NCBI GenBank assembly: GCA_963718615.1
Contig: OY970368.1
Coordinates: 5,472,001 to 5,536,000 of the forward strand
DNA: 64,000 nucleotides
Source of the DNA: an uncultured cyanobacterium
Lineage (GTDB): Bacteria; Cyanobacteriota; Cyanobacteriia; PCC-9006; JAAUQQ01
Reading direction: 5' to 3'
The number at the start of each line of letters is the position of its first letter. Position 1 is the stretch's first letter. This document shows, piece after piece, positions 29,778-35,722 of the stretch. Position numbers and translations under genes: made by a program. The notes below the pieces were generated by a model that made no database searches, was not told where the DNA came from, and worked only from the letters and a program-made list of their open reading frames with translations.

Positions 29778-31406
29778 TCATGATACTTTTGCGGTTGCTT
29801 CGGCTACCAGACTCAACGCTACCGCCTCCGCGACCCGAATTCCATCCACCCCCGCAGAAAGAATCCCGCCAGCATAGCCCGCGCCCTCTCCGGCTGGATA
29901 GAGACCCTTCGTATTGATACTCTGTAAATCTTCCCCCCGCTTAATCCGAATCGGCGAAGAGGTGCGGGTTTCGACCCCCGTCAGCAGGGCATCGGCGCTG
30001 GCAAAACCGGGAATTTGCTGTTCAAAGGCGGGGAGGGCCTCTCGGAGGGCGGCGATCGCATAATCGGGCAAACTCCCACTCAAATCACACAACTGCACCC
30101 CCGGTCGATACGTTGGCTTGACGCTACCCCAATTCGCCGAAGGACGCCCCGCCAGAAAATCCTCGACCAATTGCCCCGGAGCCTGATAGGTACCGCCGCC
30201 CAACTCAAACGCCCGCGCCTCTAGTTGTCGCTGAAACTCGATTCCCGCGAGGGGACTCCCCGGATAATCCTCTGGCGTAATGCCTACGACAATGCCGCTA
30301 TTGGCATTTTTGCCGCTGCGTTCGTATTGACTCATGCCATTGGTCACCACTCGGCCCACTTCTGAAGTTGCTGCCACAACCTGGCCGCCGGGACACATGC
30401 AAAAACTATACACCGCGCGACCGTTTGCACAATGATGCACCAGCTTATAATCCGCTGCGCCCAAAATCGGATGACCAGCCTGATCGCCAAATCGGCACTG
30501 ATCGATCAGCGGCTGGGGATGCTCAATCCGAAATCCGATGGAAAAGGGCTTGGGCTCGATATAGACTCCCCGTTCATAGAGCATTGCAAAGGTATCGCGG
30601 GCGCTGTGGCCCACGGCGAGGATAACGTGGTGGGTGGGCAGCCTCTCACCATTCTCCAATACCACCCCCTGCACCTGTCCCGCTTCGATCTCTAGGTCCA
30701 CCACCCGCGTTTGGAAGCGAATTTCACCGCCCATGGCTTCGATCCGGTGGCGCATTTGCTCGACGATTTTGACCAGTCGATAGGTGCCAATGTGGGGCTT
30801 ATTGATGTACAAAATTTCCGGTGCGGCCCCCGATTCAACTAGCTCTGTCAAAACCTTGCGGGCACGATTGTCGGGGTCTTTGATGCGGCTATACAACTTG
30901 CCATCGGAGAACGTCCCGGCACCACCTTCGCCAAACTGGACGTTGGATTCGGGGTTAAAGGTGCCCTTGCTCCAGAATCGGAACGTGTCCTGGGAGCGCT
31001 CATGCACTGCTTTCCCTCGTTCTAGAATAATGGGGCAAAATCCCATCTGTGCCAGCAATAGCCCTGCGAACATGCCACAAGGCCCATTGCCAATGACAAT
31101 CGGGCGTTCGGTCAGGGCTGAAGATGCGGAAGATGCCGTGGCAACCATCCGGTAGCGCGTATCGGGGGTGGGGAGAATATGGGGGTCTTTTTTGAACCGT
31201 TGGAGGAGTTGCTTTTCCTTGGGGGTTTCGAGGTCGATGATGTAGACCAGGGCGATCGCCCCCCGTTTGCGGGCGTCGTAGCTGCGTTTGAAGATTTGGT
31301 AACTCGTGAGTGCGTCGGCGGGGAGCCGCAGTTTTTTGAGGATCGCGGCTTTGAGGTCGGTTTCGCTGTGGTCGAGGGGGAGTTTGAGTTCGGTCAGACG
31401 GAGCAT
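29778..31406 (-). CDS. FAD-dependent oxidoreductase (uncharacterised conserved family)
   Basis: GNGPCG, FGEGGAGTFSDGKL, SFCMCPGG, GVETRTSSP, GEGAGYAGGI. Confidence 0.9.
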   Translation of the reverse strand: MLRLTELKLPLDHSETDLKAAILKKLRLPADALTSYQIFKRSYDARKRGAIALVYIIDLETPKEKQLLQRFKKDPHILPTPDTRYRMVATASSASSALTERPIVIGNGPCGMFAGLLLAQMGFCPIILERGKAVHERSQDTFRFWSKGTFNPESNVQFGEGGAGTFSDGKLYSRIKDPDNRARKVLTELVESGAAPEILYINKPHIGTYRLVKIVEQMRHRIEAMGGEIRFQTRVVDLEIEAGQVQGVVLENGERLPTHHVILAVGHSARDTFAMLYERGVYIEPKPFSIGFRIEHPQPLIDQCRFGDQAGHPILGAADYKLVHHCANGRAVYSFCMCPGGQVVAATSEVGRVVTNGMSQYERSGKNANSGIVVGITPEDYPGSPLAGIEFQRQLEARAFELGGGTYQAPGQLVEDFLAGRPSANWGSVKPTYRPGVQLCDLSGSLPDYAIAALREALPAFEQQIPGFASADALLTGVETRTSSPIRIKRGEDLQSINTKGLYPAGEGAGYAGGILSAGVDGIRVAEAVALSLVAEATAKVS

Positions 31407-31547
31407 GGGTTTACCCTGGGCGATCGGGGGGGAGGATTTCCAAGGGGTTTGGATGTCCTCCGTTGTTTATTGTGTCATGGCGTTCTGAACAAAGGGCTGG
31501 GGAGTAGAATCTTACTAACGTCTTACCTATGTGCGGATGGGGGTTCG

Positions 31548-31811
31548 ATGGAAATCACGCGTTTGTCGAGTAAGGGGCAGGTCATTATCCCAAAGGCTTT
31601 GCGAGCGGCTCGAAACTGGGTGGCGGGTCAGGAGCTGATTGCGATCGATATTGGAGATGGGATTTTGCTGAGGCCAAGGCGAGCCTTTAGGCTAACGTCT
31701 CTGGTGGATGTGGCGGGATGTTTGAAGTACGAAGGTGCTCCCAAAAGTCTGGAGGACTGGGACGTTGCAGTGCGCGAAGGAGTAAGGGAGCAGTGGCATG
31801 ATCGCGGTTGA
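31548..31811 (+). CDS. AbrB/MazE-type antitoxin (VapB-like)
   Basis: MEITRLSSKGQVIIPKALR...GDGILLRP. Confidence 0.85.
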   Translation: MEITRLSSKGQVIIPKALRAARNWVAGQELIAIDIGDGILLRPRRAFRLTSLVDVAGCLKYEGAPKSLEDWDVAVREGVREQWHDRG

Positions 31812-32177: not shown

Positions 32178-32212
32178 GGTTGGCTGGTTACGCATGGGGA
32201 ATTGTTGGATGG

Positions 32213-32436
32213 ATTTTAAAAAAATCCGATCGCGCTGCACGCGAGGGCAAAATAGCCCCAAAATAGCTGCTATATCAACAGAAATACGAAAAAGGCAAGA
32301 GGGCAAAGGGCTAGGTCCTCAGGGCGGCGCACACCACCCGAAAACCGGTGAAGAAGTTGAAGTCGTCGGGCACATTCCCGACGCGCTGCGCGGAGCGGCA
32401 GTTCCTCGGATTGAAGTTCCAGGAGCCGCCGCGTAG
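32213..32436 (-). other. Putative DGR variable region with downstream pyrimidine tract and hairpin
   Basis: C-terminal RGGSW...GFRVVC with NNC/NNT codons at variable positions; stem-loop TCGCG-N5-CGCGA at 32230-32244 followed by a T-run on the minus strand. Confidence 0.65.
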
Positions 32437-34386
32437 TATATGCAACTCTTTGCTATCGTCAAAAGTTATCCAAGTTGAACCATCCGTTGGAGCTTTCTCG
32501 TAGTTGTCATGCCATTTGTCAGCACACCATTCCCACACATTCCCATGCATGTCATATAGCCCAAAGGCATTGGGCGGAAAGCTACCCACTTCAGTGGTCT
32601 GTTCTCGATACTTCCCCTTGCTGCTCTTGCCGTAGGTGTAGTTTCCGTCGTAATTCACGAGGTCTGGTGTGATCGTTTCACCAAAGTAAAACGGCGTGGT
32701 TGTCCCCGCCCGACAGGCATACTCCCACTCCGCTTCGCTCGGCAACCGATACTCTCGCCCCGTCCTCTCGCTCAGCTTTTTACAAAACTCCTGGGCATCA
32801 TTCCAGCTCACCTGCTCCACCGGACGGTTCTCGCCTTTGAAATTTGAGGGATTTTCCCCCATCACCGCCTCATACTGTGCCTGGGTCAACGCATACTTGC
32901 CCACACAAAACTCTGGGACCTGAACCCGATGGTGTGGGTATTCACTGCTTAAAGCCTCTTCTTCGCCATCCGCTGCCCCCATCCAAAACTCACCCCCAGG
33001 GATATCCACCATCTCCAACGTGATGCTATTGCCCAGATCTTCGATAAACTGCTCCGCCGATCGGGCCTCGCGCTGGGTGATCTGGCCCCGCTCATCCACC
33101 TGCACTGTCTTAAAGTCAAACCGAATGAGTTTGGGGCCGTTGGCGGGGGCTGAGGGCGGGACGAACGGCTGTTCGTCCGTACGGGGGGTGGGCGATGTTC
33201 GGGATCCTGGGGGGGATGGCTGGGGCTCTGGCTGCGGCGACTTGGGTGCTGATCGAGGCTGTAGCTGCCGCTCTTGGATCATCGCCTGCTCAATCCGCTC
33301 CGCATCCGCCTTCCCCAACTGTAAATTTTGCCGAATCCCCTCCAACCGACGCCTCGAGCGCTCACTCGGCAGACAACCATCCCCCACCGCCTGCCCAAAA
33401 TACTCGCGATACTTCGCCCGCTGCCGTGCCCGCACCCCATAGGGAGCCTGCACCTTTTGCTCTAGCTGCTGCGCCACCTCCAGGGGCACCTCCAACCGCA
33501 CCCGCAGCGTCTCTAGAAAGCCCCGGTCTAGCGGATCGCTAATCTCCCCATCAAACGCCAGCCCCAACTCCCCATCCAACTCCTGAAAAATCCGATCCAC
33601 CTCCCGCCGATACTCCAACACCGGATCCAACCTCGGAGCCCGCACGATCGGAATCTCATAGCCCGCATCCCGCGCCACAATAATCTTCGGCGACACCCCA
33701 CCCTTCTGCTCCACCTCAAACCGCCGCTCCGCATAACCATGCAGATCCCGCGCCACAATCCAGTCCCCCGCCCGCTCCCCCCGCCCATCCTGAGGCAACG
33801 CCGCCCCCGCCATCCCCTCCAGCAAATAGTGCGTATAGAGCGACAACCCATCCACCGCCTGAAACGAAGACTGCGCCGCACTCGACGACGCCAAAATCAC
33901 CCGCCCCGGAGCCTTCAGCGCCTCCAGCGCATTCTCTCCCTCCCCCTTGCGCAACAGATCCGCAATGGCCCCGCTATAACAACAGTCCAAAATCACCACA
34001 ATCTGCCCCGCCTTACTCAGCGACATCTGCCGCTTCAGCGTCTCCGCCGACATCGCCGTCCATTCCTGCAACCGCTTTTGCTCCTTCCGCGACCCCTTCA
34101 CACAGAAATGCAACTGCTGTTGCGCCACACTGATGCCCAAATCCCCATGGCCCGAAAAATAAAACAGCAGTAAATCCCCTGCACCCGCCCCCTGGAAAAA
34201 CTGCCCCGTCGCCGCCTCCATCGCCAGCCGTTCCGGATTCTCCAACGCGATCGGCGCTTCAAACGCCCCCTGCTGCGGATCCCCCAACGCCGCCGCCATC
34301 CCCCGCACATCCAGCAAACTTCCCGGCAACGACTCAAAGCCTTCGCCATATTCGCTCACACCGATTAGCAACGCTCGTCGTGCCAT
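32311..34386 (-). CDS. Caspase (peptidase C14) plus helical repeats plus FGE-sulfatase/C-type-lectin-fold protein
   Basis: RRALLIGVSEY, FYFSGHG (His), ILDCCYSG (Cys); C-terminal RLPSEAEWEYACRAGT, NAFGLYDMHGNVWEWC, RGGSW. Confidence 0.93.
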   Translation of the reverse strand: MARRALLIGVSEYGEGFESLPGSLLDVRGMAAALGDPQQGAFEAPIALENPERLAMEAATGQFFQGAGAGDLLLFYFSGHGDLGISVAQQQLHFCVKGSRKEQKRLQEWTAMSAETLKRQMSLSKAGQIVVILDCCYSGAIADLLRKGEGENALEALKAPGRVILASSSAAQSSFQAVDGLSLYTHYLLEGMAGAALPQDGRGERAGDWIVARDLHGYAERRFEVEQKGGVSPKIIVARDAGYEIPIVRAPRLDPVLEYRREVDRIFQELDGELGLAFDGEISDPLDRGFLETLRVRLEVPLEVAQQLEQKVQAPYGVRARQRAKYREYFGQAVGDGCLPSERSRRRLEGIRQNLQLGKADAERIEQAMIQERQLQPRSAPKSPQPEPQPSPPGSRTSPTPRTDEQPFVPPSAPANGPKLIRFDFKTVQVDERGQITQREARSAEQFIEDLGNSITLEMVDIPGGEFWMGAADGEEEALSSEYPHHRVQVPEFCVGKYALTQAQYEAVMGENPSNFKGENRPVEQVSWNDAQEFCKKLSERTGREYRLPSEAEWEYACRAGTTTPFYFGETITPDLVNYDGNYTYGKSSKGKYREQTTEVGSFPPNAFGLYDMHGNVWEWCADKWHDNYEKAPTDGSTWITFDDSKELHILRGGSWNFNPRNCRSAQRVGNVPDDFNFFTGFRVVCAALRT

Positions 34387-34391
34387 TCCCC

Positions 34392-34817
34392 TTATTGCGC
34401 CTGCTTCGCGGATTCGATCGCCGTTACAAATCCCTTAAATTCATCCATCACCGCCGCCAATTCCTTCGCATTGCGCCCATCAAACTCAAACTTTGCCCCC
34501 CCATACTCAAACTTCGCCTTCGTAGACGTCCCCACCAGGCGACCATAGAGCCACTTGCCAAAGGCCGCAATATTTTCCAGATTGATTTCCACATCCAAAA
34601 TACTGCCGCCAGGTTCCCCCTTCGGAATCCCTGCCATCACCGGCACCTGCCCCGCCGAAAACGGTACCACCCGCGCCGAATGCTCCTCCAGCTCCGTGGC
34701 AATCACCCGCGTCATCGCTTGCAGTTCCTCATCGGAAGCCGCTTCATCCTCAACCCAGAGATGAAATTCAACCGTCTTTGCGTCACTCATGCGATATACG
34801 GAAAAACTACCTGCCAT
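34392..34817 (-). CDS. Small caspase-associated protein (EACC1-like)
   Basis: EELQAMTRVIATEL...GIPKG...LDVEINLENIAAFGKWLYGRL...EL; 5 bp upstream of the caspase gene. Confidence 0.65.
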   Translation of the reverse strand: MAGSFSVYRMSDAKTVEFHLWVEDEAASDEELQAMTRVIATELEEHSARVVPFSAGQVPVMAGIPKGEPGGSILDVEINLENIAAFGKWLYGRLVGTSTKAKFEYGGAKFEFDGRNAKELAAVMDEFKGFVTAIESAKQAQ

Positions 34818-35722
34818 TATAAATCCCTCAAGATAAACCGCTCAATCGCCCTGGCCACCGCCTCCGGCTTCTCCAAATGGGGCACATGGCCACAGTCTTT
34901 GATCCACTCCAACTGGCATTGAGGAATCGCCTGGGCAAAGGGCACCGCATCCTTCGTTCCCAGAATTCGATCCTGCCGTCCCCAAATCAGTAGGGTTTCG
35001 GCTTGAATTTGGGGGAGACGCGATCGCAACTTCGGATACCCCCCACTCTTCGTAAACCCCTTGAGCCCCTCATCCCAACGAGGCATTTGTAAATGCAACG
35101 CCGCGCAAAGTTCCGCATCGGGTGTGACGAGGCGATCGCCCGCAAAATAGGCATTCAAACTAATCTTCCGCCGCACATCAGACCGCCGCAAAAATTCCAC
35201 CGCCCACTGGTCTAAGGGCGAAAATAAAAACTTACCCATCACCGGACCATTCTGATAGCCTGCACTGTCCAAAAGCACCAACCGCTCAACCGTTTCCGGG
35301 TAAGTCAAGCAAAAGTCAATGGCCGCTGCGCCGCCCATCGATGCTCCTACAAGAACTACAGGACGTTGCAGTTTCTGTTGCCAGAAAGCGTAGAGATGGG
35401 TTTTGAGGGTTGCGGGGTTGAGGGGGATGTCTGTGGGGCGATCGCTAAAGCCAAATCCCAACAAATCCACCAGCCAAACTTCGCGAGTCTCAGCCAAGCG
35501 CGGAAACAACCGCCGAAATTCCAAAAGCGAGCTGTCAAAGCCGTGGAGAATCAACAAGGGCGGTGCTTCAGACGGGCGGCCTGCGGTGGCATAGGCCGTG
35601 GCGATGGGCTCGGAGCGGAGGGGCGTGGCGATCGCCTCCACCTGAATCCCCTGGGCGAGGGCGATCGAGGTTGGCTCTGTCAGTTGGCTAGCCAATTGGC
35701 GAATGGGATCGGGCAGCGACAT
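34817..35722 (-). CDS. Alpha/beta hydrolase
   Basis: LHGFDSS, DLLGFGFS, GASMGG, WGRQD, GHVPHLE. Confidence 0.9.
   Translation of the reverse strand: MSLPDPIRQLASQLTEPTSIALAQGIQVEAIATPLRSEPIATAYATAGRPSEAPPLLILHGFDSSLLEFRRLFPRLAETREVWLVDLLGFGFSDRPTDIPLNPATLKTHLYAFWQQKLQRPVVLVGASMGGAAAIDFCLTYPETVERLVLLDSAGYQNGPVMGKFLFSPLDQWAVEFLRRSDVRRKISLNAYFAGDRLVTPDAELCAALHLQMPRWDEGLKGFTKSGGYPKLRSRLPQIQAETLLIWGRQDRILGTKDAVPFAQAIPQCQLEWIKDCGHVPHLEKPEAVARAIERFILRDL

What the first reader, a model, noticed from the sequence alone, without database searches (positions are those of the whole stretch)
32213..34817. EACC1-like plus caspase-FGE gene pair whose ligand-binding tail looks like a remote DGR hypervariable target
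Seen: a small gene coupled (5-bp gap) to a caspase with an intact His/Cys dyad fused to an FGE/C-type-lectin-fold domain. The last ~40 codons read tgg aac ttc aat ccg agg aac tgc cgc tcc gcg cag cgc gtc ggg aat gtg ccc gac gac ttc aac ttc ttc acc ggt ttt cgg. The non-conserved positions are mostly NNC/NNT, as expected from adenine mutagenesis of AAC/AAT template codons. The stop is followed by a pyrimidine tract (CCCTTTGCCCTCTTGCC) and a GC hairpin with a T-run. No RT, Avd or template repeat is in the window. Established: cyanobacterial DGRs diversify C-terminal FGE-type CLec domains of multidomain signalling proteins, including remote targets, and EACC1-caspase pairs are described as conflict systems of multicellular bacteria. 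Inference: a diversifying receptor wired to a protease, i.e. a candidate immune or self/non-self cell-death module.
Basis: partly seen in the sequence, partly recalled or inferred. Interest (0 to 1): 0.85.

Follow-up and report, generated by a model that had tools for sequence, protein, structure and literature searches.

The report
Caspase sensor pair, relic DGR target
A cyanobacterial cell-death module (a small pore-protein-like gene plus a caspase fused to a lectin-fold sensor) carries the scars of reverse-transcriptase-driven hypermutation in its sensor tip, but the genome has lost the enzyme, so the sensor now looks frozen; this kind of system is already described.

Summary
On the minus strand, a 141-aa gene (34392-34817) lies 5 bp upstream of a 691-aa caspase (H80/C136) fused to a C-terminal FGE/C-type-lectin domain (32311-34386).

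About 370 kb away the genome holds a template-repeat-like element (G000:C1:5133911-5133986). The window's last ~76 nt differ from it at 11 positions, 8 of them template adenines (Fisher p=0.001). Four other FGE genes show the same bias.

The complete single-contig genome has no reverse transcriptase and no bAvd. The template is 3'-truncated and sits in repeat-laden DNA. Same-family relatives carry intact cassettes: one has small gene, caspase-FGE, bAvd, RT and TR in a row, and the closest ortholog has a TR just downstream.

Best reading (0.72): a remote DGR target that was written in the past and is now frozen.

The small protein fails Pfam EACC1. It links to EACC1 only through sub-threshold hits in relatives, a language-model search and the conserved caspase neighbour (23 of 29 loci). 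By analogy, the sensor would activate the caspase, which would cleave the small protein into a pore former.

This is a new member of a known kind (eLife 2020, BMC Genomics 2020, a bioRxiv 2025 preprint). Interest is modest.

The parts
34392..34817 (-). Small gene, 141 aa, EACC1-like (divergent; not a Pfam EACC1 member)
   Evidence: - ORF found.
- No Pfam or NCBIfam hit.
- Its family has 41 representatives at E<=1e-3 among 1.84 billion proteins.
- 2 of 33 family members hit PF19953 below threshold.
- The ESM Atlas top clusters carry EACC1 in 29% and 14% of members.
- A caspase lies directly downstream in 23 of 29 homologous loci.
34605..34658 (-). Codons 54-71 of the small gene: low-confidence loop between two alpha/beta halves; candidate cleavage linker (inferred)
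   Evidence: The AlphaFold2 model has mean pLDDT 78.5. Its elements are E15-24, H29-45, E49-53, a loop (pLDDT below 50 at residues 62-67), then E72-79, H80-94, E99-105, E108-113, H117-140. The comparison with the two-fragment EACC1 of the bioRxiv preprint 10.1101/2025.11.14.688446 is by analogy only.
33805..34380 (-). Caspase (Peptidase_C14) domain, aa 3-194; His80 (34147-34149), Cys136 (33979-33981)
   Evidence: - Pfam E 2.9e-14.
- NCBIfam NF047832 'caspase, EACC1-associated type' scores 122.5 bits, below its cut-off of 140.
- The dyad motifs were located and are invariant in 17 of 17 homologs.
33067..33606 (-). Middle region aa 261-440 (helical, then Pro-rich linker), no family assigned
   Evidence: No Pfam hit. 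It is conserved next to the caspase domain in several homologous loci. The Pro-rich linker plus FGE part is 82% identical in DNA to that of a kinase-FGE paralog.
32332..33015 (-). FGE-sulfatase / C-type-lectin-fold domain, aa 458-685
   Evidence: Pfam PF03781, E 2.1e-56.
32359..32434 (-). Variable region (VR): the 76 nt that align without gaps to the genomic template repeat at G000:C1:5133911-5133986
   Evidence: - 11 mismatches, 8 of them at template adenines. That is 8 of 21 A against 3 of 55 non-A, Fisher p=0.001.
- With the VR taken as the template, 0 of 11 mismatches fall at its own A positions.
32311..32358 (-). 3' end of the gene after the TR-matching stretch. It includes the GC-rich end shared by the five TR-matching VR genes (IMH-like; the window copy has one C-to-T change)
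   Evidence: Codon alignment of the 9 paralogs. Relatives' VR/TR pairs differ here in the way IMH and IMH* do.
32213..32310 (-). Conserved 3' module: pyrimidine tract, then a GC palindrome/hairpin (32230-32244) with a T-run. It is a terminator-like element and possibly the DGR target hairpin. The window copy has a ~45-nt insertion between tract and hairpin
   Evidence: The terminator-like site was found. The same module sits behind the stop of all 9 VR-type FGE copies in the genome.

Best explanation
The locus is a two-gene protease-effector module of a cyanobacterium. It comprises an EACC1-like small protein and a caspase with a C-terminal FGE/C-type-lectin sensor domain. The sensor's tip (VR) was written in the past by a diversity-generating retroelement (DGR).

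The template survives only as a 3'-truncated orphan about 370 kb away, among three stand-alone FGE genes. The reverse transcriptase and bAvd have been lost from the genome. The window gene is therefore a former remote DGR target whose sequence is now frozen.

Inferred mechanism, by analogy with published EACC1-caspase systems:
1. Ligand binding by the lectin-fold tip activates the caspase.
2. The caspase cuts the small protein in its central loop.
3. The freed C-terminal half permeabilises the membrane and kills the cell.

Shown here: the anatomy, the TR/VR relation, the absence of RT and bAvd, and the intact cassettes in relatives. Inferred: past homing, the order of the losses, and all biochemical steps.
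For: TR and VR relation
1. A TR-like element lies at G000:C1:5133911-5133986. It is rich in AAY codons and is intergenic.
2. Mismatches to five VRs concentrate at its adenines over the same 76 nt:
   - window: 8 of 21 A against 3 of 55 non-A
   - gene1: 13/21 against 6/55
   - gene2: 12/21 against 6/55
   - gene3: 11/21 against 4/55
   - kinase-FGE: 15/21 against 6/55
   - p ranges from 1e-3 to 6e-7; the reverse comparison gives 0-11% of mismatches at A.
3. There is a sharp discontinuity between paralogs. Identity is 0.60-0.66 in the 450 nt upstream (0.83 for window versus kinase). It is 0.87-0.98 at TR non-A positions and 0.19-0.67 at TR A positions.

Loss of the machinery
4. No RT was found by any of four tests:
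   - PF00078 gave 0 candidates, while its control genomes responded.
   - A motif regex gave 0 hits.
   - tblastn with 7 relatives' DGR RTs gave best E 0.46.
   - blastx around the TR gave nothing.
5. There is no bAvd. The one 23S_rRNA_IVP-type protein lies among hydrolases, far from any TR.
6. The TR lacks the 3' part that relatives' TRs keep; a hairpin sequence stands there instead. The 389 bp upstream, where relatives have the RT, consists mostly of multi-copy short repeats.

Relatives
7. G003:C103 has small gene, caspase-FGE, bAvd, RT and TR in a row. Its TR/VR mismatches are 15 of 28 A against 4 of 97 non-A.
8. G006:C69 has the closest ortholog pair (75% identity in the caspase domain) with a TR about 380 bp downstream. 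Its mismatches are 17/28 A against 8/97 non-A.

The module itself
9. The caspase dyad is invariant in 17 of 17 homologs.
10. A caspase lies next to the small-gene homolog in 23 of 29 loci.
11. Links to EACC1 come, and from the best NCBIfam caspase model.

Literature
12. EACC1 is cleaved by its caspase and then forms pores, and EACC1-protease pairs are fused to DGR targets (bioRxiv 10.1101/2025.11.14.688446, passages read).
13. Remnant TR-VR homology without an RT has been reported in Nostoc PCC 7120 (PMC7517822, passages read).
Against: - Only 73% of the window's mismatches fall at template A, below the >80% rule of PMC7517822.
- The three non-A mismatches (in two codons) are shared with gene1, gene2 and the kinase-FGE, but not with gene3. 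The window VR was therefore probably last written from a slightly different template, either an earlier state or a lost sister TR. The surviving TR may be cognate only to gene3.
- The A-share does not separate relic from active. The G006 pair, which has its TR close by, has 68%.
- Absence of an RT is shown only for this one-contig assembly. A plasmid or phage that was not assembled could carry one.
- The TR match covers only about 76-94 nt of the ~125-nt VR.
- EACC1 membership fails both curated thresholds.
- No read data could be obtained to test for present-day variation.
Confidence: 0.72

Rival explanations
1. Active remote DGR target. The VR is still being rewritten in trans from the surviving template, or another one, by an RT that this assembly does not show.
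For: - A TR exists, and the mismatches to it are biased to its adenines.
- The 3' module thought to guide homing is kept.
- Trans-acting diversification of remote targets is reported in other bacteria (PMC10907252, passages read).
- Remote variable proteins are common in cyanobacteria (PMC7517822).
Against: - No RT by four independent tests and no bAvd in a genome of completeness 100 on one contig.
- The TR lacks its 3' end, including the IMH*-type stretch present in relatives.
- The window's IMH-like end has a base change.
- The window's non-A mismatches point to another template.
Confidence: 0.1
2. There is no DGR history at this gene. The VR-like pattern comes from ordinary paralog divergence with diversifying selection on ligand-contact codons, and the 'template' is only a decayed fragment of another FGE gene.
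For: - The TR-like element is short and truncated and has no RT beside it.
- Ligand-contact positions of this fold would vary under selection anyway.
Against: - The asymmetry is directional. With the TR as template, 67-73% of mismatches fall at its A. With any VR as template against the TR, 0-11% do.
- The step from about 62% identity upstream to 87-98% at non-A positions needs copying from a common template.
- The element matches relatives' true TRs, which sit next to RTs, at up to 85%.
- It is not preceded by FGE coding sequence.
Confidence: 0.05
3. The pair is not a death module. The caspase-FGE would be a housekeeping or signalling orthocaspase, and the small protein an unrelated partner such as a chaperone, an inhibitor or an immunity-like protein.
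For: - The small protein fails the EACC1 HMMs.
- PMC7517822 argues that orthocaspase variable proteins may serve homeostasis or differentiation.
Against: - Tight coupling (5-nt gap) and a conserved caspase neighbour in 23 of 29 loci.
- A two-half fold with a central loop, like the cleavable EACC1 described in the preprint.
- The same genome also has a Pepco-caspase-FGE pair, and Pepco is a known protease-activated pore former.
Confidence: 0.13

Closest known systems
Cyanobacterial DGR variable proteins with an N-terminal orthocaspase or kinase grafted to a C-terminal CLec/FGE domain, including 'remote' variable proteins (Vallota-Eastman et al. 2020, PMC7517822; passages read)
   Same: - Same architecture: caspase at the N-terminus, FGE/CLec at the C-terminus, and the VR at the extreme 3' end.
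- Paralogs with kinase, caspase or no N-terminal domain occur in one genome.
- The TR lies far from the target.
- Transposase remnants lie nearby (an IS1 fragment in L001).
   Different: Here no RT or Avd is left in the genome and the TR is truncated. The A-share of 73% is below that paper's 80% rule. I could not see its supplementary tables, so I cannot say whether this genome is already listed there.
all3226 of Nostoc/Anabaena PCC 7120: remnant TR-VR homology without a nearby RT (PMC7517822, passage read)
   Same: A frozen former DGR target. The authors propose removal of the diversification parts once a variant is selected.
   Different: In the window's genome the whole machinery is missing genome-wide. 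At least five genes share the orphan template.
EACC1-caspase two-gene conflict system (Kaur et al. 2020, PMC7159879, section 33 read; Evans et al. 2025 preprint 10.1101/2025.11.14.688446, passages read)
   Same: - A small 5' gene coupled to a 3' gene with an N-terminal caspase and a variable C-terminal sensor.
- The preprint says EACC1-protease pairs occur fused to DGR targets.
- The predicted two-half fold with a linker resembles the cleavable EACC1.
   Different: - The small protein does not reach PF19953 (no hit).
- The caspase is below the NF047832 cut-off.
- Kaur et al. describe a conserved Gly-rich TM helix, which I did not test for.
- Kaur et al. report the system mainly in actinobacteria. 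This branch was found in 147 of 401 cyanobacterial genomes, against 1 of 201 for PF19953.
DGR-diversified putative antigen sensors of multicellular bacteria (Dore et al. 2024, PMC10907252; passages read)
   Same: CLec targets are linked to caspase-type effectors and adapter proteins. Incomplete DGR loci and remote targets occur there too, and mobile elements reshape the loci.
   Different: In that work most incomplete loci were still diversified in natural populations. Here no RT exists in the assembly and no read data were available.

Membership tests
DGR target gene (variable protein) | VR at the 3' end of a gene encoding a C-type-lectin/FGE-fold domain | tested here: met
   FGE-sulfatase at aa 458-685. 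The VR is the last ~125 nt of the ORF.
DGR target gene (variable protein) | A template repeat in the genome whose differences from the VR are biased to template adenines | tested here: met
   TR-like element at G000:C1:5133911-5133986. The window shows 8 of 21 A against 3 of 55 non-A, p=0.001; the reverse direction gives 0 of 11.
DGR target gene (variable protein) | More than 80% of VR/TR mismatches at template adenines (rule used in PMC7517822) | tested here: not met
   8 of 11 = 73% for the window; 67-73% for the other four VRs over the same 76 nt.
Active DGR system | DGR-type reverse transcriptase in the genome | tested here: not met
   - PF00078: 0 candidates.
- Motif regex: 0 hits.
- tblastn with 7 relatives' RTs: best E 0.46.
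- blastx around the TR: nothing.
- Caveat: the assembly is a single contig, so plasmids are not excluded.
Active DGR system | Accessory protein (bAvd) next to TR/RT | tested here: not met
   PF22296 gave 0 hits. The single PF05635 hit at 1882208 is flanked by hydrolases, with no TR or RT nearby.
Active DGR system | Full-length TR including the 3' IMH*-type end | tested here: not met
   Homology ends after about 76-94 nt and a hairpin sequence follows. Relatives' TRs run on to the stretch that matches the VR end.
Active DGR system | Conserved GC-rich end and hairpin 3' of the VR (target recognition) | tested here: inconclusive
   The module is present behind all 9 VR-type copies and the hairpin was found. 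The window copy has a C-to-T change in the GC-rich end and a ~45-nt insertion. Function was not tested.
EACC1-caspase two-gene system | The 5' gene matches the EACC1 model (PF19953) | tested here: not met
   No hit at E<=10; 0 matches in the genome at E<=1.
EACC1-caspase two-gene system | Remote homology of the 5' gene to EACC1 | tested here: inconclusive
   - 2 of 33 family members hit PF19953 below the cut-off. The best E is 1.1e-4; P0027 scores 19.8 bits against the 23.6 cut-off.
- The ESM Atlas top two clusters score 0.91 and carry EACC1 in 29% and 14% of members.
EACC1-caspase two-gene system | The 3' gene has an N-terminal caspase of the EACC1-associated type with an intact dyad | tested here: inconclusive
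   The dyad is intact and invariant. NF047832 is the best caspase model, but it scores 122.5 bits against a cut-off of 140.
EACC1-caspase two-gene system | Conserved adjacency of the small gene and the caspase gene | tested here: met
   23 of 29 non-own loci have a homolog of the window's caspase domain next to the small-gene homolog; 6 of 29 do not (flanks of only 1.5 kb).
EACC1-caspase two-gene system | Conserved Gly-rich TM helix in EACC1 (Kaur et al. 2020) | not tested
   No TM predictor was run. The AF2 model shows a helix at residues 80-94.
EACC1-caspase two-gene system | Cleavage of EACC1 by the caspase, then pore formation | not testable with these tools
   Known only from the preprint on a Ktedonobacter system.

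The most novel reading that the evidence does not exclude
After losing its DGR machinery, this cyanobacterium kept a fixed set of formerly hypervariable sensors. The set comprises at least five genes written from one template family, wired to a caspase with an EACC1-like protein, a Ser/Thr kinase, or nothing; further copies include a caspase-Pepco pair. It would be a 'germline-frozen' receptor repertoire derived from an adaptive-like diversifier, with specificities selected and then locked. The bolder alternative is that the truncated orphan template is still used in trans by an RT carried on an unassembled plasmid or a phage.
Probability: 0.12. Interest if true: 0.6.

Novelty: new member of a known kind. 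Interest (0 to 1): 0.35.

Why it matters
The finding gives a clean natural example of a DGR target repertoire after the diversifier is gone. An orphan, truncated template is still recognisable. Five targets can be dated against it. Intact cassettes in same-family relatives serve as controls. This supports the published idea that diversification parts are removed once useful variants are fixed.

It also shows that a cyanobacterial branch of EACC1-like proteins escapes the current Pfam and NCBIfam models. The branch was found in 147 of 401 genomes searched, against 1 of 201 for PF19953. This matters for annotating protease-effector defence modules.

It does not reveal a new mechanism.

Tried and rejected
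- Public sequencing runs: none was listed for window 32200-33200. Read-level variation could not be tested and read laying was not used.
- Complex prediction of the caspase domain (alignment A3) with the small protein (alignment A2): no verdict (score 0.03, mark 0.32). This is no evidence either way.
- PF19953 in 201 cyanobacterial genomes: 1 of 201. It could not supply true EACC1 sequences for a profile-profile comparison, which was therefore not done.
- Comparing own VRs with relatives' TRs over 126 nt: non-A differences were high (15-35), as expected between species, so this was uninformative. One exception: the stand-alone FGE gene at 6.036 Mb fits the TR of G003:C46, with 6 non-A and 18 A mismatches. 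One 'TR' picked by A-count in that script (L025+731) was a false pattern match and was ignored. In one search my automatic choice of the most A-rich segment in L063 was wrong, and the comparison was redone by hand.
- The Avd-like protein at 1.88 Mb: rejected as part of a DGR, because there is no RT or TR nearby.
- The alpha/beta hydrolase upstream (34817-35722) as a third module part: rejected, since it was found beside 0 of 29 other small-gene loci.
- No fold search was run on the small-protein model. I know of no solved EACC1 structure (recalled, not checked).
- Supplementary tables of PMC7517822 and PMC10907252 were closed. They may already list this genome or locus.
Full report
**What is in the window**

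On the minus strand, three ORFs run head to tail.
- An alpha/beta hydrolase gene lies at 34817-35722. Its stop overlaps the next start by 1 nt.
- A 141-aa gene lies at 34392-34817.
- After a 5-nt gap comes a 691-aa gene at 32311-34386.

Pfam finds Peptidase_C14 at aa 3-194 and FGE-sulfatase at aa 458-685 in the large protein, and nothing in the small one. NCBIfam's best caspase model is NF047832, 'caspase, EACC1-associated type'. It scores 122.5 bits, below the curated cut-off of 140.

His80 (SGHG) and Cys136 (DCCYSG) are present. Both are invariant in 17 of 17 aligned homologs.

The stop is followed by a pyrimidine tract and a GC hairpin with a T-run at 32244-32230.

**The template repeat exists, outside the window**

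The window is G000:C1:5472001-5536000 of a 6,095,823-bp single-contig genome. The genome is cyanobacterial: Ycf48 and other markers appear in the fetched loci.

BLASTN of the last 126 nt against the genome found several FGE paralogs. It also found one short hit at 5133911-5133986 that is not inside an FGE ORF. That element carries a run of AAY codons. It lies between the second and third of three stand-alone FGE genes.

Over the same ungapped 76 nt, the five VRs differ from it as follows.

| VR | Mismatches at template A | Mismatches at non-A |
|---|---|---|
| window | 8 of 21 | 3 of 55 |
| gene1 | 13 of 21 | 6 of 55 |
| gene2 | 12 of 21 | 6 of 55 |
| gene3 | 11 of 21 | 4 of 55 |
| kinase-FGE | 15 of 21 | 6 of 55 |

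- Fisher p ranges from 1e-3 (the window) to 6e-7.
- The reverse comparison, with a VR as 'template' against the TR, puts only 0-11% of mismatches at A.
- All 7 AAY template codons keep a pyrimidine in the third position in the window.

- The paralogs are 60-66% identical in the 450 nt upstream of the VR (83% for window against kinase-FGE).
- They are 87-98% identical at the template's non-A positions.
- They are only 19-67% identical at its A positions.

That step is what copying from a common template with adenine mutagenesis predicts.

**The machinery is gone**
- PF00078 finds no candidate in the genome, while its control genomes respond.
- A six-frame RT-motif regex finds none.
- tblastn with seven DGR-type RTs taken from relatives gives no hit better than E 0.46.
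- blastx of the 700 bp around the TR finds nothing.
- bAvd (PF22296) is absent.
- The only 23S_rRNA_IVP-type protein sits among hydrolases at 1.88 Mb.

In relatives the order is RT, then TR, then the next FGE target. In the own genome, the 389 bp upstream of the TR is made mostly of short multi-copy repeats.

TR homology stops after about 76-94 nt, and a hairpin sequence with one other copy nearby follows. Relatives' TRs continue into the stretch that mirrors the GC-rich end of the VR.

**Which template wrote the window's VR**

The window's three non-A mismatches fall in two codons. They are shared with gene1, gene2 and the kinase-FGE, but not with gene3, the gene directly downstream of the TR. 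DGR homing copies non-A positions faithfully. These four VRs were therefore probably last written from a slightly different template state, or from a lost sister TR. The surviving element fits gene3 best.

This weakens 'this TR wrote this VR'. It does not weaken 'a TR of this family did'.

**Relatives**
- G003:C103 (same family) has the full cassette: small gene, caspase-FGE, bAvd (PF22296, E 1.1e-17), RT (PF00078, E 6.1e-20) and TR. Its mismatches are 15 of 28 A against 4 of 97 non-A.
- G006:C69 has the closest ortholog pair, with 75% identity in the caspase domain. A TR lies about 380 bp downstream of its stop, with 17/28 A against 8/97 non-A mismatches. The contig ends 90 nt later.
- That pair's A-share is 68%. 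The window's 73% therefore does not by itself mark decay.

**The small protein**
- Its word-based relatives number 7.
- A profile search of 1.84 billion representatives gives 41 at E<=1e-3.
- 2 of 33 aligned members hit PF19953 below the cut-off.
- The ESM Atlas puts EACC1-bearing clusters first, at score 0.91.
- The A2 profile finds the family in 147 of 401 cyanobacterial genomes. PF19953 itself finds 1 of 201.
- A homolog of the window's caspase lies next to it in 23 of 29 loci, and not in 6.
- AlphaFold2 (pLDDT 78.5) gives two alpha/beta halves joined by a low-confidence loop at residues 54-71.

I call the protein EACC1-like, not a member.

**Mechanism, inferred**

The preprint 10.1101/2025.11.14.688446 (passages read) reports three things:
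- a caspase cleaves EACC1 into two fragments;
- the C-terminal fragment is toxic and permeabilises liposomes;
- EACC1-protease pairs occur fused to DGR targets.

Kaur et al. (PMC7159879) defined the two-gene system. By analogy, the lectin-fold tip would sense a ligand and the caspase would cut the small protein in its loop. The released half would then kill the cell.

**The wider repertoire in this genome**
- A Ser/Thr kinase-FGE.
- A second caspase-FGE preceded by a Pepco gene.
- An FGE protein with an unassigned N-terminus.
- Four stand-alone FGE genes.
- A decayed paralog of the window pair, with a split small gene and an FGE domain that has no VR homology.

**Novelty**

Four things are already in print:
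- orthocaspase-CLec variable proteins;
- remote targets;
- remnant TR-VR homology without an RT (PMC7517822);
- EACC1-caspase-DGR links.

This locus is a well-documented new member, not a new kind. Supplementary tables could not be read.

Noticed in passing
window 34817-35722 (-): An alpha/beta hydrolase gene (Abhydrolase_1, E 2e-26) overlaps the small gene's start codon by 1 nt. Protease-activated alpha/beta hydrolases exist in defence modules, according to the preprint read. However, no homolog lies beside the 29 other small-gene loci.
   Followed up: partly
L027 2297-5039 (G000:C1 ~2468296-2471038): A decayed paralog of the window pair. The small gene is split into two ORFs. The caspase is 71% identical in its domain, is followed by a TM-like segment, and ends in an FGE domain with no VR/TR homology.
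   Followed up: partly
L028 1022-3435 (G000:C1 ~3273021-3275434, minus strand): A second caspase-FGE gene, preceded by a 143-aa Pepco gene (PF24393, E 1.5e-25). One genome thus couples two different protease-activated effector types to DGR-type sensors.
   Followed up: partly
L029 1357-3150 (G000:C1 3707853-3709691, minus strand): A Ser/Thr kinase-FGE whose Pro-rich linker and FGE domain are 82% identical in DNA to the window's. This suggests the sensor cassette was swapped between N-terminal domains. In its best local alignment to the TR, 10 of 10 VR mismatches fall at TR adenines.
   Followed up: partly
L001 6523-7075 (G000:C1 5133522-5134074): The orphan TR is embedded in short multi-copy repeats and is followed by a long hairpin, which has one further copy at 5135722. 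IS1 transposase fragments lie 5 kb upstream.
   Followed up: partly
G000:C1 6032737-6036939 (L030): Two further FGE genes have VRs that fit a TR in relative G003:C46 (6 non-A and 18 A mismatches for the second gene). They have no TR in the own genome, which points to a second lost DGR lineage.
   Followed up: no
G000:C1 5051933-5052301 and 5886862-5887077: Two more distant homologs of the small protein lie in the own genome (tblastn E about 1e-9). Their neighbours were not examined.
   Followed up: no
window 31179-31811 (+), C-terminal part: The ORF ends in a sequence that looks like an AbrB/SpoVT-type antitoxin. This was judged by eye from the translation and was not tested.
   Followed up: no
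window 34816-34845 (-): A promoter-like site (10 of 12 matches) has a -10 hexamer that overlaps the small gene's start codon. Its meaning is unclear.
   Followed up: no
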